DNA from: Escherichia coli
Lineage (GTDB): Bacteria; Pseudomonadota; Gammaproteobacteria; Enterobacterales; Enterobacteriaceae
Reading direction: 5' to 3' (one strand)
NCBI RefSeq assembly: GCF_001677475.2
Contig: NZ_CP015229.1
DNA length: 64,000 nt
A program made the position numbers and the translations under genes. The notes beneath the pieces are model-generated. The model was given only the letters and a program-made list of their open reading frames with translations. It was not told where the DNA came from and did no database searches. Positions 9,033 through 54,146 of the stretch are shown here, piece by piece; the stretch's first letter is position 1; every line of letters starts with the position of its first letter.

Positions 9033-9725
9033 TTAATTGTGTCGCTTAAGGGTTTGTGACTGGCTGATTAAGACCTTTCCAAAGACCATAAACCGGTGTT
9101 CATTTTCGCTGGTAATTCCCCATTCACGGTAAATCTGGTTATCAGAAATCACCAGTAGTTTGTCAGGTATCATTTGCAGTCGTTTGACATAAATTTTATC
9201 ATCAAAACCAAATACATAGATACCATCTCCATCAAACTGATTGATACTGACATCAACGAAGATGAGATCTCCTGGCTCAATGGTTGGACACATACTGTCC
9301 CCACGAACGTTGATTACTTTAATGTGATTTGCTGGCCGTCCGCCAAACATCGATACAGCATTATCAGTTCTGTATTCAATGGCATGAATCACATCAATGA
9401 CATCACCGCCCTGGATAAGGCCATTTCCCGCACTGGCACTGATATCCAGCATTTCAATACGGAATACATCCTTCACCTGCGCAACATCCTCACTAATACT
9501 GTTTTTACATACAGTATTACTTTTGAAGTCTGAGGTAAAGAGATCAGCAATATCAACACCTAAGCTCCTGGCAATATTACTCAGGGCTTGTTCAGTGAAT
9601 TGTTTCTGCTTACCTGTTTCCAGGCGCGAGATATTTGCCGCATCCACTCCTATTGCTTCAGCGAGATCGGCGATTTTCATGTTCTTCGCTTGGCGAAGTT
9701 GTCTGACTCGATTTCCTATGTTCAT
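9033..9725 (-). CDS. CI-like repressor (N-terminal HTH, C-terminal S24/LexA-type autopeptidase)
   Basis: 230-aa ORF; HTH (MKIADLAEAIGVDAANISRLETGK) and S24 peptidase motifs (GDSM ... KRL). Confidence 0.85.
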   Translation of the reverse strand: MNIGNRVRQLRQAKNMKIADLAEAIGVDAANISRLETGKQKQFTEQALSNIARSLGVDIADLFTSDFKSNTVCKNSISEDVAQVKDVFRIEMLDISASAGNGLIQGGDVIDVIHAIEYRTDNAVSMFGGRPANHIKVINVRGDSMCPTIEPGDLIFVDVSINQFDGDGIYVFGFDDKIYVKRLQMIPDKLLVISDNQIYREWGITSENEHRFMVFGKVLISQSQTLKRHN

Positions 9726-16966: not shown

Positions 16967-17727
16967 ATGATTTTCACCGAACGATGGCGACATAACGATT
17001 GTATTTTCTAAGGAAACGTGCAAAGAGTTTTCCAATGATGAGCCTTATATGCATACCGGTGGAAAATATCAATAAGCCGCGCAGAGTGGTTTTTTTGTGG
17101 ACATAAACTTTGTGCAGAACGGTAACCATTATGGTTGCCGTGAATGCAGTTTTTTTACATTGCTGGCTTTTTTAGATTTGTGTTAGTTATTGATATTAAC
17201 AAGAAGGGGAAAAGACATGCTAAAACGGCAGGATATGAAGGAAACGGTTATGCGTGAATGTTCCAGTGTGATTAACCATATCATCTGGAGAAGCCATCCT
17301 GATGCAGGGAAGAGGTAACAGTAACGCGCATCAATCAGGCTGCAAATAAATGGCTTACGCCGGAAATCTGGCTATCGATGTATTACCGGTTTGTTACCCA
17401 TGAAGAAAATTAAGGTGATAACGAAACTGATTTTATAGGTGTCTTGTCAGAGTGTTGCGATGAAACTTGTGTTGGCAGTGCAGGGAAAACAGTAGGATGA
17501 AAATTATAAATTGCTTTAAATTAGCTTGATTTTCCTCATGTTATGAGATATTTGTCTTATATTGCTGGTTAATTATGAAAATTTTTGTAAATCTACAGCA
17601 ATAAAATCCATATTAATTAAAGCACTAGATGCGTTTCTGATTTGTGCATGAAACATACATATCATAATGATTAATTGCATCTATAATTACAGATACAGCA
17701 TTGTGCTGTTAAAAAACTGGAGTCCCC

Positions 17728-17835
17728 ATGAATACATTATATGTAAGTGATTCAAATGAAAAATCTCATGACAGGAATAAAAACAATGAGGATAGTAAGG
17801 GTAAGGATAATAAAAAAGACAACCGGAAAGAGTAA
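17728..17835 (+). CDS. Hypothetical 35-aa highly charged small protein
   Basis: ATG with upstream CTGGAG; MNTLYVSDSNEKSHDRNKNNEDSKGKDNKKDNRKE; hand-translated, below track cutoff. Confidence 0.25.
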   Translation: MNTLYVSDSNEKSHDRNKNNEDSKGKDNKKDNRKE

Positions 17836-17870
17836 ATAATCTTTCCTGCATAAAAATACTAGGGTGGAAT

Positions 17871-17990
17871 ATGTCAGAACATCCAGATTTTGATGACCGT
17901 AAGCCTGATGATGAGCCCGTTGAGCGTCCTGATGAGGGGCAACCATTGAACCCTTTTTCACCGGATGATAAAAGAGATCCTATTATTTAG
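17871..17990 (+). CDS. Hypothetical 39-aa acidic small protein
   Basis: ATG preceded by GGGTGG; MSEHPDFDDRKPDDEPVERPDEGQPLNPFSPDDKRDPII; followed by a terminator. Confidence 0.25.
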   Translation: MSEHPDFDDRKPDDEPVERPDEGQPLNPFSPDDKRDPII

Positions 17991-18044
17991 ATATAGCAGA
18001 ATATAGCCGTTTAAAGTAGGTTGTGTTTTGTTGCTATCCTTAAA

Positions 18045-18071
18045 CCACCTCCACAGGAGGTGGTTTTTTAC
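18045..18071 (+). terminator. Rho-independent terminator
   Basis: CCACCTCC-ACAG-GGAGGTGG followed by TTTTTTA. Confidence 0.7.
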
Positions 18072-18126
18072 TAATGGAACATTAATTGGCAGATGTGATT
18101 GTGTACAACTTATGGGAGGCTTAAGA

Positions 18127-18312
18127 TTATTTTCTGCCAATAATAAAACCAAGCGTTAACCCTATGCTTAGAGCAACCACCACGCTAGTCAGTGGATAAT
18201 TTCTAAATTTATCTTTAACGTTTTCTTTGCCTCCCTGCAAAGCATCGTCAGCACATGATGCATATTTTTTGACAGTATTAACTATTTCGTTTTCAGATTG
18301 ATTTGAAGTCAT
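18127..18312 (-). CDS. Small C-terminally membrane-anchored protein, DUF883 (ElaB/YqjD)-like
   Basis: C-terminus DKFRNYPLTSVVVALSIGLTLGFIIGRK resembles ElaB-family anchors; start taken at internal ATG. Confidence 0.35.
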   Translation of the reverse strand: MTSNQSENEIVNTVKKYASCADDALQGGKENVKDKFRNYPLTSVVVALSIGLTLGFIIGRK

Positions 18313-18765
18313 GTTTGAAGTCCTGATGTTAAGTGGCTTTTTAATTATAGCAGATATGCTTTCAATGATAGGGCGGAGAGTTGTTATTGAGGTGATACTA
18401 TGACCACTCAATCAACATTACATAAAATGACGTTTACTCCTGTTTGGCACAGTAGCAGAATTTTGCTTCTGCTACTGAAGTCGCTTTAGCACTAGAATAT
18501 GCAGATGGATAAAGCAGTTCAGCGTATGTACTGCGTCATGCATATCGGTCTTGCAGATATGACGAGAAGGGGAGACAAGGTGTGTGTAATGTAGAAGTCT
18601 TTAAAGTGCTGTCTGGGATAACTCTATACTGAAGTGCAATTGATAAAAGTAACACGATAAAGGTTTTTCAATGAAGATGGTAACGTGATGCTTGCATTTT
18701 TCAAAAAATATGGATAAAATTTTTTCAACGATGGGCTTTGTATACCCGACGTTAAGAAAAAGTAG

Positions 18766-18792
18766 AAAACCCGCTGATGAGCGGGTTTTGTG
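18766..18792. terminator. Bidirectional rho-independent terminator
   Basis: AAACCCGC-TGATGA-GCGGGTTTTG with T/A runs on both sides. Confidence 0.55.
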
Positions 18793-19081
18793 CTTTAAAT
18801 GGGGCAATGGTAATGTTGAATCTCATCCCGGGACTCATGTCTGTTAACTTATTATTTAGCTGGTGACTTGGTTATTTGCCTGATGTTTAAAATGTTTTCT
18901 TCCAGTACAATGTCCCTAAACACAATGAGTCTGCTTATTATATTATTAGCAGAGCTATTACGGCCAAAGTACAGCATAAGCTTTTAAAGCCAGTCAACCA
19001 GTCATCAAGACAGACGGGGTTATTCATAAAAACTCTCCATGTGTGATCCGATGGGGCCTGAAATTAAAGCTTTAATATAGC

Positions 19082-19294
19082 TCATGAAAGGTAAACATTG
19101 GCAGCTGAAGGGCCACGCAGAGCATTTATCCGGCAAAATTCCACGCGTAATCCGGTGGTAATTTCTTCTGCATCGCGGAGATTGAGCGCTGAAACATGAA
19201 GCTGGACATCGATACGACCATCGGATGGGGTGATAAGACCCTTGCCGCTTTTGCCGTCAAAGGTTTTGACAATTCCTGTCATTTTACGGGACAA
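19082..19294 (-). CDS. Cold-shock protein, CspF/CspH-like
   Basis: 70-aa [30 protein letters not shown]...; cold-shock domain; non-ATG start as in K-12 cspH/cspF. Confidence 0.85.
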
Positions 19295-19594
19295 AAAAAT
19301 TCCTTAATACTGATAACTTGGCGCACTATACACACGTTCCTGAAGAAAGCTATAGTTTTTTGATGGGGTTGAAGATGGCTGGATGTCTAAAATAAACATT
19401 GCTTCATATGTTCAACTATGCGTTAATGATTGCGTCGGTTTGAAGAACAGACGATATACGAAGTAGTTTACTAAAGCAGTTCTCATTTCAGGTGTTATTC
19501 ACTTATTCCTTCTTTGAGTCTCTCCAATTAAGTACGAAGTCGTTTCTGTTATACAAGCCATTTATGCCGAAAGGCTCAAGTTAAGGAATGTAGA

Positions 19595-19810
19595 ATGTCA
19601 AATAAAATGACTGGTTTAGTAAAATGGTTTAACGCTGATAAAGGTTTTGGCTTTATTTCTCCTGTTGATGGTAGTAAAGATGTGTTTGTGCATTTTTCTG
19701 CGATTCAGAATGATAATTTTCGAACCTTATTTGAAGGTCAAAAGGTTACCTTCTCTGTAGAGAGTGGTGCTAAAGGTCCTGCAGCAGCAAATGTCATAAT
19801 TACTGATTAA
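19595..19810 (+). CDS. cspB: Cold-shock protein CspB
   Basis: 71-aa [44 protein letters not shown]...; near-identical to recalled CspB; divergent from the cspF-like gene as in Qin. Confidence 0.9.
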
Positions 19811-20092
19811 AATTAATAGTTTGTCTGTATACGATAACGAAGAAGGCTGATGCCTGAGTGGAGATACAGACAGAGTGGTGAATATTGGATCTCTTTAATA
19901 AATAGTAAGGAGATCCAATACATGAAACAATGGCCAGCATATTTGGCAATAACTTAATCAGGAAAAGTATGCTAACCATTGTGGTGAAGTGCAGGTTTGC
20001 TGCATGAATAGTTTTACAGCAGAAGCTAACTGCTAGCATAGCAAAACAAAGTGCGTAAGTGGATGACTCCCACAAAAAGCACCACAATATTA

Positions 20093-20115
20093 AACCCGCT
20101 CAGGCGGGTTTTTTA
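20093..20115 (+). terminator. Rho-independent terminator
   Basis: CCCGC-TCAG-GCGGG followed by TTTTTTATT. Confidence 0.65.
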
Positions 20116-20173
20116 TTATCTGCTTTAAATATGTTATTAAAATATAAAAAATACTTGTTACGAATAAAATCAA

Positions 20174-20344
20174 TCAAGCTACAGCTTTAAGATTTGTCTG
20201 GAATACTTTGTTGCAATGAGGGCAGATCAAAAGAGCACCTTTTTGTACTCTTGAAAAACTGTGTTCTGACTCTTGGGTGCAGTTTGGGCAGGAACATTTA
20301 ACGAGATAATTACGGCGTGATTTTGAGTCTTTACGTTCTGACAT
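20174..20344 (-). CDS. Small zinc-ribbon protein (two CxxC pairs), function unknown
   Basis: MSERKDSKSRRNYLVKCSCPNCTQ...CPHCNKVF; start at internal ATG with SD AGGA; a TGTATA-N8-TATACA palindrome lies just upstream. Confidence 0.45.
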   Translation of the reverse strand: MSERKDSKSRRNYLVKCSCPNCTQESEHSFSRVQKGALLICPHCNKVFQTNLKAVA

Positions 20345-20562
20345 AGGCTTTTCCTGTATAAATGGCCGTATACAGTACACTAAATATGAAAACATATCTC
20401 GTATTATTATTTAATATATGATTTTCTTTTAAAATAATTACCCACATTTTTAATGTGTCTGTTTTTTAGCGCCGTTGAGAACAACGTTTGCTATAAAAAC
20501 TAACCCATAGACTCCGATCTTTTCAAACATATTGCACCATCTGTGTACATCGGGGTGAGGAT

Positions 20563-20778
20563 ATGAAATCAATGGATAAGTTAACAACAGGTATCGCCTA
20601 TGGCACATCGGCTGGTAATGCTGGTTTCTGGGCATTGCAGTTACTCGATAAAGTAACTCCGTCACAGTGGGCTGCAATCGGTGTGCTGGGTAGTCTGGTT
20701 TTTGGCCTGCTGACATATCTGACAAACCTTTATTTCAAGATTAAAGAAGACAGGCGTAAGGTTGCGAGAAGAGAGTAA
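20563..20778 (+). CDS. Holin (phage 21 S / EssD-EssQ class II type)
   Basis: 71-aa ORF with two TM segments and charged C-terminus ([13 protein letters not shown]). Confidence 0.85.
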
Positions 20779-20782
20779 TCCA

Positions 20783-21334
20783 ATGACTCAAGACTATGAA
20801 CTGGTTGTGAAAGGAGTTCGCAATTTTGAGAATAAAGTGGCGGTAACTGTAGCCTTACGGGACAAAAAACACTTTGACGGTGAAATTTTTGACCTGGACA
20901 TCTCGCTGGACCGTGTTGAAGGTGCCGCGCTGGAGTTTTATGAGGCAGCAGCCAGAAGGAGCATCAGACAGGTCTTCCTGGATGTTGCTGCCGGGTTATG
21001 TGAAGGGGATGAGCAGTCGCCGGAAAAGCGCCCCATAATTTTAGAGGCGCAGAATGTGTGGATAACCTACAAAGGAAAGCTACCGGGAAGAATTACTGGT
21101 TCTCTGAAGACGCCACCGACGGCATTGCGGTCAGAAAAAGATGATATTGAATCGCCCATTGAAAAACTGGAGGGCAGCGTCGCTGATCTGAATAAAAAAT
21201 TGTCGGTGCTGATTCCTTCTGAAGATGAAAAAAAACGCCGCGATGAGCAGTTTGCGGCGTTTTACGATTATTGCATTGAAGTTACTCGCAGGAATTTTGT
21301 GAAGATTTTTGAGGAGGGTAAATCTCTTCAGTAA
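20783..21334 (+). CDS. Hypothetical protein between holin and endolysin
   Basis: 184 aa from ATG at 20783 (MTQDYELVVKGV...); no recognised motif; possibly YdfR-position gene. Confidence 0.4.
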   Translation: MTQDYELVVKGVRNFENKVAVTVALRDKKHFDGEIFDLDISLDRVEGAALEFYEAAARRSIRQVFLDVAAGLCEGDEQSPEKRPIILEAQNVWITYKGKLPGRITGSLKTPPTALRSEKDDIESPIEKLEGSVADLNKKLSVLIPSEDEKKRRDEQFAAFYDYCIEVTRRNFVKIFEEGKSLQ

Positions 21335-21542
21335 GCTTATTGGCGGACGCTGCAATTAATTCAGGAAGGTCCGCAAGGTCATCTGTCAGTGGATATGATG
21401 AAAAATCGGCGGCAGTTCTGTTAAGAAGCGCTTTAACTAATTCCTTTTCCTTCTCCGGCAACAAGTTGATTAGAGCTACGACTGCTTGCCTGAGTGCGAT
21501 TAAATCAGCAAAAGTTTGTTTTGGTAGATTTGTGTAATCCAT
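21282..21542 (-). CDS. Hypothetical 86-aa protein, convergent and 3'-overlapping the preceding ORF
   Basis: Minus-strand ATG preceded by SD GAGGCG; non-repetitive protein-like composition. Confidence 0.35.
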   Translation of the reverse strand: MDYTNLPKQTFADLIALRQAVVALINLLPEKEKELVKALLNRTAADFSSYPLTDDLADLPELIAASANKLTEEIYPPQKSSQNSCE

Positions 21543-21655: not shown

Positions 21656-22683
<1,028 letters not shown>

Positions 22684-23045
22684 ATTAATATTAAATCGGA
22701 TTATTTTTAGCGCTGAATGTGAAATTTAAATAAAAAGGACTCTTCCATGAGTCAAAATCCTTGAAATCTTAAGGGTAAGATAAAAGGTCATTAGACAGAA
22801 TGACACGTTTTATTAATAAATAAAGCTATTGTTTCATTCGTGTGTTTTTCTTTACAAAAGTAATCCTTGCTATGGTTGGTTAATCATGCGTTAATGGTGT
22901 TCTGGTTTGTTACAAAATTATCTGAAGCAGTCATTGTTATAATTTTATTATTTGTACCTCTTGAGATTTCCTTGTTGGTTTTTCTCTCTGATATTTTTTT
23001 CGGACCATTCTGCCCAAGGGCTAACTTCTTCAAAAGGTAATAATG

Positions 23046-23258
23046 ATGTCTAACAAAATGACTGGTTTAGTGAAATGGTTTAACCCTGAAAAAGGTTTTG
23101 GTTTCATCACGCCGAAAGATGGTAGCAAAGATGTGTTTGTCCATTTCTCAGCTATTCAGAGCAACGATTTCAAAACGTTAACTGAGAATCAGGAAGTCGA
23201 ATTTGGTATTGAGAACGGACCTAAAGGCCCCGCGGCTGTTCATGTTGTGGCACTTTGA
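23046..23258 (+). CDS. cspI: Cold-shock protein CspI
   Basis: [70 protein letters not shown] matches recalled CspI. Confidence 0.9.
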
Positions 23259-23461
23259 GGTAGAAAATATTACAAACCATATTCACTTTAGATGCCCGTG
23301 TTGCCATGGTTCTCAGTATAGAACATCATCTTTTGATGTTTCTGACAGGAATCCTTTCGGGGCAAAATGTATCTTTTGTAAATCAATGATGATTACATTT
23401 GATAATATTTCACAATACTTAAATGTTAGCCGTCTGTCGTTAGATTTAAGAAAGTGAAAAT

Positions 23462-23486
23462 GAAGGCTCCTTCGGGAGCTTTTTTG
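23462..23486 (+). terminator. Rho-independent terminator after cspI
   Basis: GGCTCC-TTCG-GGAGC followed by TTTTTTG. Confidence 0.7.
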
Positions 23487-23490
23487 CTTA

Positions 23491-23760
23491 GTGTCTAGTC
23501 GATGGATACTCACATATTACGGTAACATTATGAAAAAAATAATAGTTTTTTTTAACTCTGAACCAGCAATGGTAGTGCCAGTGATGACCGGAGTTAACAC
23601 CATCATGCGTGAATATCCAAATGGCGAAACAACACACCTCACTGTAATGGCTGCAGGGTTTCCATCTCTGACCGGAGATCATAAAGTCATTTATGTAGCA
23701 GCGGATCGACATGTAACTTCAGAAGAAATTCTGGAAGCAGCAATGAGACTCTTGAATTGA
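23491..23760 (+). CDS. Hypothetical small protein
   Basis: 89-codon ORF; start uncertain; no recognised motif. Confidence 0.3.
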   Translation: MSSRWILTYYGNIMKKIIVFFNSEPAMVVPVMTGVNTIMREYPNGETTHLTVMAAGFPSLTGDHKVIYVAADRHVTSEEILEAAMRLLN

Positions 23761-23932
23761 TTTGATTCTAATGCATTGATAATAAATGATAATCATCTTT
23801 ATCTGTTTGTGTGAAATTTAGACCGTCGTATGTTGATTATTGCGATGTTTCATCTTATCTTTTATACGTTTGCTCCATATAATTGACACTACTGTGTACC
23901 AGGAAAGTCATAACAGACTAAAAGAGGAAATG

Positions 23933-24106
23933 ATGAACATTGAAGAGTTAAAAACAAAAACAGAAGCAGATATTTCTGAATATATAACAAAAAAAATCAT
24001 TGAGCTTAAGAAAAAGACCGGGAAAGAAGTTACCAGTATCCAGTTTACTGCACGGGAAAAAATGACTGGTCTTGAAAGCTATGATATCAAGATTGATTTA
24101 ATCTAG
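23933..24106 (+). CDS. gnsB: GnsA/GnsB-family small protein
   Basis: MNIEELKTKTEADISEYITKKIIELKKKTGKEVTSIQFTAREKMTGLESYDIKIDLI resembles GnsB; SD AGAGGA upstream. Confidence 0.75.
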   Translation: MNIEELKTKTEADISEYITKKIIELKKKTGKEVTSIQFTAREKMTGLESYDIKIDLI

Positions 24107-24401
24107 TCTGTTTATAGTATTAGCATCAATTTCTTGTCAGATGCTATTCAACAATACAATTTACCCATAAACCTCGTTTTTACGGGGTTTTGTTATATTT
24201 AAACATTACCGAATAGATATAAATCTCGATAGTCGGTGGTATTGGTTGTGTGACAATACCTAGTCTTTTCGGTATGCCTGGAGAGAATACAAACGACAGA
24301 TTATGTAAGGGAAACGCGCTGAAACTTTCACACTTTCATGCTGAGTGATTTGACGTTATATTTTTAGCCGCAAGTGAAGAGCAAACGCATGGAGCGACAA
24401 A

Positions 24402-24608
24402 ATGCATAAAGATCAATACACTGATGACTCATCCCTGGATCAGGTCCGTGTAAAAACTATGCTCACTAGCACCATTTCTATGAGTTATCCGGATGTTGTA
24501 ATTGCATGTATAGAACATCAAGTGTCTCTGGAAGCATTCAGGGCAATTGAGGCAGCGTTGGTGAAGCACGATAAGAATTCGAAGGATTATTCCCTGGTGG
24601 TTGACTGA
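24402..24608 (+). CDS. Hypothetical small protein
   Basis: 68-aa ORF, no recognised motif. Confidence 0.3.
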
Positions 24609-24858
24609 TCACCATAACTGCTAACCATTCAAACTATTTCACCTGTGACAGAGTCAATATCGCATTCTGTCACTGTCAGGCTAATACAGAACTACAATTC
24701 AACTACTGCAATGCCTCGTAATTAGGTGAATTTACAATATCGTCCTGTTCGGATGCCAACTGCATTTCTGAGGATAAGGCGTTTATGACTCACATATTTG
24801 TCCCACACGCTCGCCAGTCCTGTGCGGGGTGGGAGGGGAGGTAAAGAAACCGGGATGT

Positions 24859-25053
24859 TCATCCATCATCACTTTGGATTGATGTATATGCTCTCTTTTC
24901 TGACGTTAGTCTCCGACGGCAGGCTTCAATGACCCAGGCTGAGAAATTCCCAGACCCTTTTTGCTCAAGAGCGATGTTAATTTGTTCAATCATTTGGTTA
25001 GGAAAGCGGATGTTGCGGGTTGTTGTTCTGCAGGTTCTGTTCTTCGTTGACAT
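24859..25053 (-). CDS. Small DNA-binding protein (DUF3950-like) upstream of cos
   Basis: 64-aa ORF MSTKNRTCRTTTRNIRFPNQMIEQINIALEQKGSGNFSAWVIEACRRRL, ribbon-helix-helix-like pattern. Confidence 0.5.
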   Translation of the reverse strand: MSTKNRTCRTTTRNIRFPNQMIEQINIALEQKGSGNFSAWVIEACRRRLTSEKRAYTSIQSDDG

Positions 25054-25239
25054 GAGGTTGCCCCGTATTCAGTGTCGCTGATTTGTATTGTCTGAAGTTG
25101 TTTTTACGTTAAGTTGATGCAGATCAATTAATACGATACCTGCGTCATAATTGATTATTTGACGTGGTTTGATGGCGTAGATGCACGTTGTGACATGTAG
25201 ATGATAATTATTATCATTTTGCGGGTCCTTTCCGGCGAT

Positions 25240-25330
25240 CCGACAGGTTACGGGGCGGCGACCTCGCGGTTTTTCGCTATTTATGAGATTTTTTGAGGGG
25301 GTGGTTGTTGTTTAATTGTTTGGTATATCT
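25240..25330. other. cos site; cosN cohesive end GGGCGGCGACCT at about 25253..25264
   Basis: Sequence ACAGGTTACG|GGGCGGCGACCT|CGCGGTTTTTCGCTATTTATGA matches the lambda cos junction from memory. Confidence 0.8.
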
Positions 25331-25480
25331 AATTGATAAGTAAGGTGAAAATAAAATAAATACAACAACCTTACGATGTGCTTTGATGTCATTAATGTGA
25401 AAAAATTAAATGATATCAAATGGTTTTGTAAAAACACATGGTTGTTGTATCGCTTTTTATCGATGACTTATGGAGAGGAG

Positions 25481-25987
25481 ATGGCCTTTTTATTGAATAA
25501 AAGTGATATGGCCTCCTCCATCGGTATCTCTGTTCAGGCATTTGATAAATGGGGCGTTCCTCCTGTCGAGCGTCGGGGGAGGGAAGTTTTTTATGACGTT
25601 AAAACTGTACTGGAGATAGATCGCGAGCGGCGACAACACAATCATAGAACACCTGATGACGGGGGCGATCTGGAGGAAAGGCTGCTTCGGGCCAGAGCTG
25701 AACTGACAGAAGAACAGGCCGTAGCTCAAAAACTTAAAAATCAGGTAACCGAAGGTAAGCTCATCGATTCAGACTTCTGCGTTTTCGCCCTCAGCAAGCT
25801 GGCGATGGCATTGTCCAGTACGCTTGATTCTATTCCGTTATCCATGCAGCGACAGTTCCCGGATTTAACGCCACGTCATCTTGACCATCTGAAAACCCTT
25901 ATTGCGAAGGGCGCAAATCAGTGTGCGCGGGCAGGGGATAAATTACCGGATTTGCTGGATGAATATATCAGAGCAACAACTGAATAA
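25481..25987 (+). CDS. nu1: Terminase small subunit Nu1
   Basis: Lambda Nu1-like; start at ATG with SD GGAGAGGAG in the track frame. Confidence 0.85.
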   Translation: MAFLLNKSDMASSIGISVQAFDKWGVPPVERRGREVFYDVKTVLEIDRERRQHNHRTPDDGGDLEERLLRARAELTEEQAVAQKLKNQVTEGKLIDSDFCVFALSKLAMALSSTLDSIPLSMQRQFPDLTPRHLDHLKTLIAKGANQCARAGDKLPDLLDEYIRATTE

Positions 25988-54102: not shown

Positions 54103-54146
54103 CTGTGTTTGTATACAGTGTTATTTTTAACTGTATGAATAAACAG
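54103..54146. promoter_or_regulatory. Two tandem LexA boxes (CTGT-N8-ACAG) in the dinI-like promoter
   Basis: CACTGTGTTTGTATACAGTG at 54101..54120 and AACTGTATGAATAAACAGTG at 54129..54148. Confidence 0.75.

What the first reader, a model, noticed from the sequence alone, without database searches (positions are those of the whole stretch)
20174..20395. Small zinc-ribbon protein with a palindromic site in its promoter
A ~56-aa protein with two CxxC pairs is encoded opposite the holin; just upstream is TGTATA-CGGCCATT-TATACA, a dyad that could be an operator (not a canonical LexA box).
Basis: seen in the sequence. Interest (0 to 1): 0.3.

Follow-up and report, generated by a model that had tools for sequence, protein, structure and literature searches.

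The report
Known small gene ynfU; palindrome incidental
The small two-CxxC protein is the already described E. coli prophage gene ynfU. The palindrome in front of it is real, but it occurs only in Escherichia and is no better than chance, so it is probably not a regulatory site.

Summary
The coding sequence is window 20174-20344 (- strand) and encodes a 56-aa protein with two CPxC knuckles, divergent from the holin gene essQ. A perfect dyad, CTGTATA-N8-TATACAG, lies at 20354-20375 and ends 10 nt before the ATG.

The gene is ynfU (K-12 b4776; Pfam PF23499, NCBIfam NF038384). Its translation was shown by ribosome profiling plus tagging, and again by PIRT-seq. Its function is unknown. It occurs in 1652 of 5426 complete E. 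coli genomes and in at least 16 enterobacterial genera.

The dyad is not supported as an operator:
- A 7-bp dyad appears in 25% of shuffles of this AT-rich spacer.
- In a 58-sequence alignment of ynfU upstream regions, only 37.7% of its positions pair, below the shuffle and slide controls.
- No consensus RNA structure is predicted for the alignment.
- Real CTGT-N8-ACAG SOS-type boxes occur elsewhere in the same prophage, whereas this dyad has N14.

What is conserved is a TAnnnT hexamer 33-36 nt before the ATG in all 66 distinct sequences (TACTGT at 20372-20377). This is most likely the -10 element. It is followed by a short leader of about 20 nt with an AGGA ribosome-binding site.

One unplanned finding: in 44 of 61 species ynfU lies within 1 kb of a cold-shock-domain gene, across 30 different flank contexts. 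Only 5 of the 61 loci contain lysis genes. This points to a cold-shock role.

The parts
20174..20344 (-). ynfU coding sequence (56 aa plus stop): C4 zinc ribbon with two CPxC knuckles and a basic N-terminal tail
   Evidence: RefSeq CDS on identical DNA. PF23499 at 107.7 bits (cut-off 27) and NF038384 at 79.8 bits (cut-off 36). Translation shown in K-12. AF2 model with mean pLDDT 73 and beta-hairpins.
20352..20355 (-). Ribosome-binding site AGGA, 7 nt before the ATG
   Evidence: Read from the sequence. CAGGA is conserved in the 58-sequence alignment.
20354..20375 (.). It is specific to Escherichia and probably incidental.
   Evidence: Identical in K-12. Variants with N7 spacing or a C-to-A change in the outermost arm position exist.
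20372..20377 (-). Predicted -10 hexamer TACTGT (family pattern TAnnnT, mostly within TGTAnnGT)
   Evidence: GTA..GT is invariant in 58 sequences. TAnnnT starts at -33 to -36 in 66 of 66 distinct upstream regions, including distant relatives; no other offset exceeds 13 of 66. Its function as a -10 element is inferred, not measured.
20363..20367 (-). Predicted transcription start, about 7 nt after the hexamer, giving a leader of about 20 nt
   Evidence: Inferred from usual sigma-70 geometry. No TSS data could be retrieved.
20394..20401 (-). Conserved block CGAGATAT (family cgaGc.at), 17 nt upstream of the hexamer at the -35 position. It is a poor match to TTGACA.
20403..20411 (-). A/T-rich conserved block AATAATAAT (family aaAAT.Aa), possibly an UP-like element or an alternative -10. 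Homology between genera ends just upstream of it.
   Evidence: The promoter scan picked TTTAAA-16-AATAAT here.
20092..20111 (+). GC-rich hairpin with a T run, lying between the convergent cspB and ynfU genes. It is the likely shared terminator.
   Evidence: Terminator scan: 8-bp stem, 5 G-C pairs. On the - strand the same hairpin follows ynfU.
19434..19873 (+). cspB with its cspA-type thermoregulator leader (CDS 19595-19810). It is the convergent neighbour with which ynfU usually travels.
   Evidence: Rfam RF01766 at 159 bits; CSD Pfam match; linkage statistics.
20563..20778 (+). essQ class II holin, divergent neighbour. This context is typical only of Escherichia-type prophages.
   Evidence: Only 5 of 61 species loci contain EssQ/RrrQ-like genes.

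Best explanation
The locus is ynfU, an independently transcribed 'moron' gene of a Qin-like lambdoid prophage. It has four parts:
- a compact promoter whose only strictly conserved element is a TAnnnT hexamer (TACTGT, 20372-20377);
- a leader of about 20 nt with an AGGA ribosome-binding site;
- a 56-codon ORF;
- a hairpin terminator shared with the convergent cspB gene.

The product is a basic (net charge about +6) four-cysteine zinc ribbon. Its function is unknown.

The palindrome CTGTATA-N8-TATACAG is a by-product of the Escherichia lineage. Its left arm is built on the conserved TGTAnnGT promoter block and its right arm on the AT-rich run just before the ribosome-binding site. It is most likely not a binding site.

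YnfU is carried next to cold-shock-domain genes in most species. The likeliest role (inferred, probability about 0.3) is as a nucleic-acid-binding or ribosome-binding accessory of the cold-shock response. A role in lysis or SOS is less likely.

Shown: gene identity, translation, conservation, non-conservation of the dyad, and linkage to csp genes. Inferred: the -10 assignment, the transcription start, zinc binding, and the cold-shock role.
For: Identity:
- 100% identical DNA is annotated ynfU/essQ in RefSeq, and 1652 of 5426 E. coli genomes carry it.
- Family models score far above their cut-offs.

Translation:
- Ribosome profiling plus SPA tagging; YnfU had the highest level among the newly found small proteins.
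- Independent PIRT-seq detection.

Conservation:
- 61 species-level loci in at least 16 genera, with 18 invariant residues including the CPxC pairs.

Start codon:
- In-frame stops lie just upstream of the ATG in many species.

Promoter:
- GTA..GT is invariant.
- TAnnnT lies at -33 to -36 in 66 of 66 sequences, and distant relatives keep only T, A and T.

Dyad not functional:
- Chance level.
- 37.7% of cells paired against 40.7% in shuffles, and no better than slid controls.
- RNAalifold predicts 0 pairs.
- The hairpin is -6.4 kcal/mol with z = -1.15.
- Mean best inverted-repeat arm is 4.1 nt against 3.84 nt in shuffles across 51 homologous regions.
- There is no second copy in the window.
- Canonical CTGT-N8-ACAG boxes exist elsewhere in this prophage, beside a DinI-like gene and in the repressor gene.

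Linkage to cold-shock genes:
- A CSD gene lies within 1 kb in 44 of 61 loci; 30 of these are convergent and directly downstream.
- A ymcF-like gene lies upstream in 14 loci.
- The loci fall into 30 different flank contexts.
- The same holds in Lelliottia, Klebsiella and a distant relative.
- cspB and cspI here carry cspA thermoregulators.
Against: - The dyad is perfect and lies exactly across the predicted -10 to about +12, where repressors act.
- Its local p value is 0.03-0.04.
- It is invariant in nearly all E. coli copies, although the whole spacer is 93% conserved, so this says little.
- Each half resembles a LexA half-site: TACTGTATAC matches 9 of 10 and TTATACAGGA matches 8 of 10 of the consensus as I recall it.
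- A 2024 study reports Qin cold-shock genes (cspF, cspI, ynfQ, ynfN) as LexA-cleavage-dependent genes without a LexA box.
- No transcription-start data were obtained. The -35 region is poor and there is no TGn extension, so the promoter assignment is unproven. An alternative -10 (AATAAT, 20406-20411) would place the whole dyad in the RNA leader.
- The cold-shock role rests on gene neighbourhood only. YnfU is well expressed at 37 C.
Confidence: 0.7

Rival explanations
1. The dyad is an Escherichia-specific DNA operator. A dimeric repressor (host-encoded, prophage-encoded, or YnfU itself) binds CTGTATA-N8-TATACAG across the -10 hexamer and the start site and shuts off ynfU.
For: - A perfect 7+7 dyad.
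- It overlaps the invariant hexamer and the first ~12 nt of the predicted transcript.
- Local p = 0.03-0.04.
- Identical in K-12 and in most E. coli copies.
Against: - Absent from all other genera that carry the same promoter module.
- No enrichment of dyads at this place in 51 homologous regions.
- 25% of shuffles of the spacer contain an equal dyad.
- The arm centres are about 15 bp apart, which places the half-sites on opposite faces of the helix (inference).
- No other copy in the 64-kb window.
- Natural variants with N7 spacing or a mutated outer base exist.
Confidence: 0.1
2. The dyad is a split SOS box. Two near-consensus LexA half-sites are separated by 6 extra base pairs, which makes ynfU weakly or cooperatively LexA-controlled. 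This would fit the reported LexA-dependent 'no-box' induction of Qin cold-shock genes.
For: - The sequence reads TACTGTATAC...TTATACAGGA.
- Neighbouring Qin genes cspF, cspI, ynfQ and ynfN are AZT-induced in a LexA-cleavage-dependent way without a LexA box.
Against: - The defining CTGT-N8-ACAG spacing is not met; it is N14.
- SOS-type boxes with canonical CTGT-N8-ACAG spacing in the same prophage.
- ynfU is not named among the induced genes in the main text.
- The half-sites are absent in other genera, including phage PHB10, which carries umuDC.
- No LexA binding at altered spacing is known to me (own knowledge).
Confidence: 0.04
3. The dyad forms an RNA hairpin in a longer 5' leader, with transcription starting near 20399 from the AATAAT -10. 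The hairpin would modulate ribosome access to the adjacent ribosome-binding site, possibly in a temperature-dependent way.
For: - A TTTAAA-16-AATAAT promoter-like site lies upstream.
- The hairpin folds at -6.4 kcal/mol, with its 3' arm touching the AGGA.
- Its neighbours are RNA thermoregulated genes.
Against: - The z-score is only -1.15.
- RNAalifold finds no conserved pair in 58 sequences, and there is no covariation.
- There is no Rfam match.
- The invariant TAnnnT inside the would-be leader is better explained as the -10. In that case the left arm is not transcribed.
Confidence: 0.06
4. YnfU belongs functionally to the phage lysis or late-gene module, for example as a regulator of holin or late transcription, because it sits head-to-head with the holin and antisense to late transcription.
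For: - Divergent from essQ here, in K-12 and in isolated phages.
- A Klebsiella phage has the same head-to-head layout with an unrelated holin.
Against: - Only 5 of 61 species loci contain EssQ/RrrQ-like genes within 2.5 kb.
- Most copies are in non-phage chromosomal contexts next to csp genes.
Confidence: 0.08

Closest known systems
YnfU of E. coli K-12 (b4776, Qin prophage; Pfam PF23499, NCBIfam NF038384)
   Same: 96% identical protein (a D6N difference). The upstream region is identical, including the dyad. The neighbours essQ and cspB are the same.
   Different: Nothing essential. Here the prophage is a fuller lambdoid element that lies next to prfC.
PhnA/YjdM N-terminal zinc ribbon (PF08274; PA0128, PDB 2akl)
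   Same: A CxxC...CPxC zinc ribbon of similar length. This is the best sub-threshold relative, matching 37 of 38 family members with a best E-value of 4e-5; the PDB profile E-value is 0.023. It is also the match noted by the discoverers.
   Different: The score is below the Pfam cut-off (22.4 against 30.8 bits). YnfU has no PhnA C-terminal domain, and it has its own invariant SEHS-x2-R-x2-KG motif.
Lambdoid 'morons' (for example lambda bor and lom; own knowledge)
   Same: A small, lower-GC gene with its own promoter and terminator, inserted between Q and the lysis genes and expressed from the prophage.
   Different: It is oriented against late transcription, and most family members are not in prophages at all.
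LexA (SOS) box CTGT-N8-ACAG
   Same: The outer bases CTGT...ACAG and AT-rich inner flanks; each half is close to a consensus half-site.
   Different: 14 rather than 8 bases lie between CTGT and ACAG. The site is not conserved, and canonical boxes occur elsewhere in the window.
YmcF/YnfQ cold-shock small proteins (PF23641)
   Same: About 60 aa, four cysteines, encoded next to csp genes. One copy lies in this window at 23203-23457.
   Different: No detectable homology to YnfU (hhalign probability 1.2%).

Membership tests
YnfU family (PF23499 / NF038384) | Sequence score above the curated cut-offs | tested here: met
   107.7 bits against 27 (Pfam); 79.8 bits against 36 (NCBIfam).
YnfU family (PF23499 / NF038384) | Two CPxC zinc knuckles in a protein of about 56 aa | tested here: met
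   C19-P-x-C22 and C41-P-x-C44 are invariant in 38 sequences. The discoverers describe the same motif.
YnfU family (PF23499 / NF038384) | The ORF is actually translated | not testable with these tools
   Taken from the literature for the K-12 gene: ribosome profiling plus SPA tag and PIRT-seq.
Zinc-ribbon fold | Two beta-hairpin knuckles that bring four Cys together | tested here: met
Zinc-ribbon fold | Bound zinc | not testable with these tools
   Requires metal analysis of purified protein.
LexA/SOS box | CTGT-N8-ACAG 16-bp palindrome | tested here: not met
   The spacing is N14. The exact pattern is found at 5 other places in the window but not here.
LexA/SOS box | LexA binding and SOS induction | not testable with these tools
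   ynfU is not mentioned among the AZT-induced genes in the main text of PMC11228462, and no supplement is held.
Transcription-factor operator (generic dyad) | Dyad symmetry kept in orthologous promoters | tested here: not met
   37.7% of cells paired against 40.7% in shuffles. Only 1 of 51 regions has a dyad with p below 0.05.
Sigma-70 promoter | -10 hexamer with T-12, A-11 and T-7 | tested here: met
   TAnnnT at a fixed offset in 66 of 66 sequences.
Sigma-70 promoter | -35 hexamer near TTGACA at 16-18 bp, or a TGn extension | tested here: not met
   The conserved block at the -35 position reads GAGATA or GAGCTA/AAGCAA, and TG directly abuts the hexamer without the spacer base. The consensus scan did not call this promoter.
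Sigma-70 promoter | Mapped transcription start | not testable with these tools
   Four supplement searches found nothing.
cspA-type RNA thermoregulator (RF01766) | Covariance-model match in the leader | tested here: not met
   Matches occur only at cspB and cspI. Nothing matches at ynfU even at E up to 1.
DNL zinc finger (PF05180; Tim15/Hep1) | Score above the Pfam cut-off | tested here: not met
   13.4 bits against 27. Only 13 of 38 members match, at E up to 1. The PDB profile hit to Tim15 has E = 0.006.

The most novel reading that the evidence does not exclude
YnfU is a so far unrecognised member of the enterobacterial cold-shock gene set. It would be a basic zinc-ribbon protein that travels with cspB/cspF-type and ymcF-type genes through many genomic contexts and acts on RNA or ribosomes at low temperature. 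In Escherichia it would additionally have acquired a private operator (the dyad) over its core promoter.
Probability: 0.25. Interest if true: 0.4.

Novelty: already known. Interest (0 to 1): 0.15.

Why it matters
The gene has been catalogued in E. coli K-12 since 2019, so the finding itself adds nothing new. It also removes a tempting but unsupported 'operator'.

Two by-products may help anyone who studies YnfU, whose function is still unknown:
- A positionally invariant TAnnnT promoter element with a very short leader. This says where to build reporter fusions.
- A strong and, as far as I could find, unreported linkage to cold-shock-domain genes (44 of 61 species). This gives a concrete condition, cold shift, under which to look for a phenotype.

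Tried and rejected
- Longer 73-aa protein. The upstream 17 codons looked conserved in frame (V-Y-x-x-R-P-F). I rejected this because many species have in-frame stops 4-6 codons before the ATG, and the similarity is at the nucleotide level, in the promoter block.
- Conserved RNA structure in the leader. RNAalifold gives 0 pairs.
- An older ATGG-N7-CCAT dyad seen in many genera. 74.6% of cells pair, but this equals the shuffle value and shows no covariation, so it reflects column conservation only.
- Lineage-specific turnover of dyads at the same spot (for example TGAACGTTCA in Citrobacter). There is no enrichment over shuffles.
- A shared motif with the csp promoters in the window. None was found.
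- Other copies of the dyad in the window. None was found.
- Transcription-start data for K-12. Searches of four paper supplements found nothing. No supplement is held for the AZT study.
- Homology to the DNL zinc finger (Tim15, E = 0.006), which would have suggested an Hsp70-escort role. It is sub-threshold and not family-wide.
- Homology to the neighbouring YmcF-like protein. None was found.
- Structure searches. Only generic zinc ribbons came back. The AFDB library was unavailable.
- An exhaustive profile search of 1.84 billion representatives. It returned only 44 hits, so this is a small family and, among the members whose source is named, enterobacterial. No informative distant relatives were found.

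Full report
**What is in the sequence**

The window carries a 73-codon ATG ORF at 20174-20395 on the - strand. It reads MSERKDSKSRRNYLVKCSCPNCTQESEHSFSRVQKGALLICPHCNKVFQTNLKAVA. On the - strand the region just upstream reads GTGTACTGTATACGGCCATTTATACAGGAAAAGCCT-ATG.

The repeat finder gives a perfect inverted repeat, CTGTATA/TATACAG, at 20354-20360 and 20369-20375 with 8 nt between the arms. The right arm abuts an AGGA ribosome-binding site 7 nt before the ATG. The class II holin gene essQ starts 218 nt away on the other strand.

**Identity of the gene**

The 471 bases around the gene are 100% identical to several complete E. coli chromosomes. There the 171-nt CDS is annotated 'ynfU: putative zinc-binding protein YnfU', next to essQ. 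In all, 1652 of 5426 complete E. coli genomes carry it. The protein matches Pfam PF23499 (YnfU) at 107.7 bits against a cut-off of 27, and NCBIfam NF038384 at 79.8 bits against 36. In K-12 MG1655 the gene is b4776 in the Qin prophage, between essQ and cspB, with the same upstream sequence including the dyad.

Weaver et al. discovered YnfU by ribosome profiling of stalled initiation complexes and confirmed it by SPA tagging. They found it to be the most abundant of their new small proteins. [quoted passage not shown] PIRT-seq detected it independently (PMC12350097). No function or regulation has been reported in the 15 papers that mention it.

**Conservation**

That test fails:
- A protein search found 49 cluster representatives.
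- A scan of one genome per species found 61 loci in at least 16 genera of Enterobacteriaceae.
- Eight phage records carry the gene.
- An exhaustive profile search of 1.84 billion representatives found only 44 hits, so this is a small family and, among the members whose source is named, enterobacterial.

Eighteen residues are invariant in 38 distinct sequences. They include C19, P20, C22, C41, P42 and C44, and an SEHS...R..KG motif between the two knuckles.

The 17 codons upstream of the annotated ATG are not coding. They looked conserved in frame, but many species have in-frame stops 4-6 codons before the ATG.

**The protein**

Sequence profiles give sub-threshold matches to many zinc-ribbon families. 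The most consistent is the PhnA/YjdM ribbon, with 37 of 38 members matching. A Tim15 (DNL finger) match at E = 0.006 is not family-wide. By my count the protein carries 10 Lys/Arg against 4 Asp/Glu. This suits nucleic-acid binding, but that is an inference.

**Is the dyad more than chance?**

- The spacer is 33% G+C.
- The 64-kb window contains 134 perfect inverted repeats with arms of at least 7 nt and a spacer of 0-12 nt.
- 25% of dinucleotide shuffles of the 218-nt spacer contain at least one such repeat, and 4% contain one within 45 nt of the ATG.
- As RNA the hairpin has -6.4 kcal/mol, with z = -1.15 against shuffles.
- No other copy of the motif occurs in the window.

**Is the dyad conserved?**

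Within E. coli it is nearly invariant, but so is the whole spacer (93% mean identity). One strain has a 7-nt spacer, and Escherichia sp. E1V33 has lost the outermost base pair.

In an alignment of 58 distinct upstream regions from other genera:
- The dyad columns pair in only 37.7% of cells. This is below the shuffle mean (40.7%) and no better than slid controls.
- RNAalifold predicts no pair at all.
- Over 51 distinct regions from -42 to -7, the best inverted-repeat arm averages 4.1 nt against 3.84 nt in shuffles. The E. coli sequence is the only one with p below 0.05, where about 2.5 are expected by chance.
- A shorter ATGG-N7-CCAT symmetry is seen in many genera, but it is fully explained by column conservation.

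Rfam has nothing at this position.

**LexA**

The site reads CTGT-N14-ACAG, so the defining spacing is not met. The exact CTGT-N8-ACAG pattern occurs five times elsewhere in the window (0.77 expected). Two copies lie 28 nt apart beside a DinI-like gene next to prfC, and one near-consensus copy, TACTGTTTTTACATACAGTA, lies in the repressor gene. The SOS-type boxes found elsewhere in this element keep the canonical CTGT-N8-ACAG spacing.

A residual lead remains. Each half of the ynfU dyad is close to a LexA half-site. In addition, a 2024 study lists the Qin cold-shock genes cspF, cspI, ynfQ and ynfN as LexA-cleavage-dependent genes without a LexA box (PMC11228462). ynfU is not named there, and no supplement was available.

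**What is conserved upstream**

Homology between genera extends only about 70 nt upstream of the ATG. It has this form: aaAAT.Aa..cgaGc.at, then about 14 nt, then cgTGTAtgGT.gcagtCCaTT.AatCAGGA, then about 7 nt, then ATG. G-T-A-n-n-G-T is invariant in 58 sequences. When distant relatives are added, what remains is TAnnnT, starting 33-36 nt before the ATG in 66 of 66 distinct sequences. No other offset exceeds 13 of 66.

T, A and the final T are the three key positions of a sigma-70 -10 hexamer (established knowledge). I therefore read TACTGT (20372-20377) as the -10 element. This puts the transcription start near 20365 and gives a leader of about 20 nt.

The block at the -35 position is conserved but unlike TTGACA, and there is no TGn extension. 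The consensus scan instead picked TTTAAA-16-AATAAT further upstream. No experimental start site could be retrieved, so the promoter assignment remains an inference.

Under this model the left arm of the dyad overlaps the last four bases of the -10 hexamer and the right arm lies at about +6 to +12. This is a good place for an operator, but it rules out an RNA hairpin.

**Context**

In this window, ynfU lies between the antiterminator gene and the lysis genes of a Qin-like lambdoid prophage, in a low-GC stretch (32-42% against 46-49% for the late genes). It converges with cspB on a shared hairpin terminator at 20092-20111. cspB and cspI carry cspA-type thermoregulator leaders.

Across the 61 species loci:
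- Only 5 contain EssQ/RrrQ-like lysis genes.
- 44 have a cold-shock-domain gene within 1 kb. In 38 it lies within 600 nt downstream, and 30 of those are convergent, as here.
- 14 have a ymcF-like gene just upstream.
- The loci fall into 30 different flank contexts.

Gene-level views agree:
- Lelliottia has YnaE-YnfU-CSD.
- Klebsiella has YnfU-CSD.
- A distant relative has YmcF-CSD divergent from YnfU.
- Enterobacter cloacae-type copies have no csp neighbour.

With roughly nine csp genes per 5-Mb genome (own knowledge), chance adjacency would be well under 1%. Shared ancestry explains part of the linkage, but the pair has been kept through many relocations.

**Verdict**

The finding is a correct reading of a gene that is already known. 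The proposed operator is not supported. It is a chance-level, Escherichia-only palindrome built on a conserved promoter block.

The most useful new points are the invariant TAnnnT element and the linkage of ynfU to cold-shock genes. The linkage makes a cold-shift experiment the obvious next test.

Noticed in passing
window 9497-9516: TACTGTTTTTACATACAGTA is a near-consensus LexA-type box and part of a 24-bp near-palindrome. It lies inside the 230-aa cI-like (XRE family) repressor ORF at 9033-9725 (-), not in an intergenic operator region.
   Followed up: partly
window 54103-54118 and 54131-54146: Two canonical CTGT-N8-ACAG boxes lie 28 nt apart beside a DinI-like gene at the prophage end next to prfC. 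This looks like a genuine tandem SOS operator.
   Followed up: partly
window 23203-23457 (+): A second small four-cysteine protein, YmcF-like/ynfQ (PF23641, 1.5e-32), lies directly after cspI. It is not homologous to YnfU (hhalign probability 1.2%). ymcF-like genes also sit just upstream of ynfU in 14 of 61 species.
   Followed up: partly
window 19850-19957 (+): The cspB-ynfU spacer holds a 35-codon ORF. Its last 11 codons (ATG at 19922) are preceded by a strong TAAGGAG site. Phage PHB10 has an annotated 41-aa CDS at the equivalent position between ynfU and its csp gene.
   Followed up: no
window 20762-21542: The DUF1327/ydfR-like ORF is 190 aa here, and RefSeq flags it as truncated. It is followed by an 86-aa ORF on the opposite strand (21282-21542; phrog_2572, 4e-53). 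This looks like an insertion inside the lysis cassette.
   Followed up: no
window 17000-20500 and 22500-25500: Two low-GC islands (32-42%) hold the csp, ynfU, ynfQ, ynfN and gnsB genes and flank the 46-49% GC lysis genes. This fits acquired 'moron' cargo.
   Followed up: no
L086 (phage HannyBb) 4085-6846: About 20 consecutive 'hypothetical' CDSs of 90-170 nt are annotated between the Q-like gene and ynfU. ARAGORN finds no tRNA there, so this is probably over-annotation of non-coding DNA.
   Followed up: partly
L005 about 2480-2500 and L062 (Citrobacter ynfU upstream): Citrobacter copies carry different short palindromes (TGAACGTTCA, TGAAGTTCA) at the place where E. coli has its dyad. Taken over all lineages there is no enrichment over shuffles.
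   Followed up: yes
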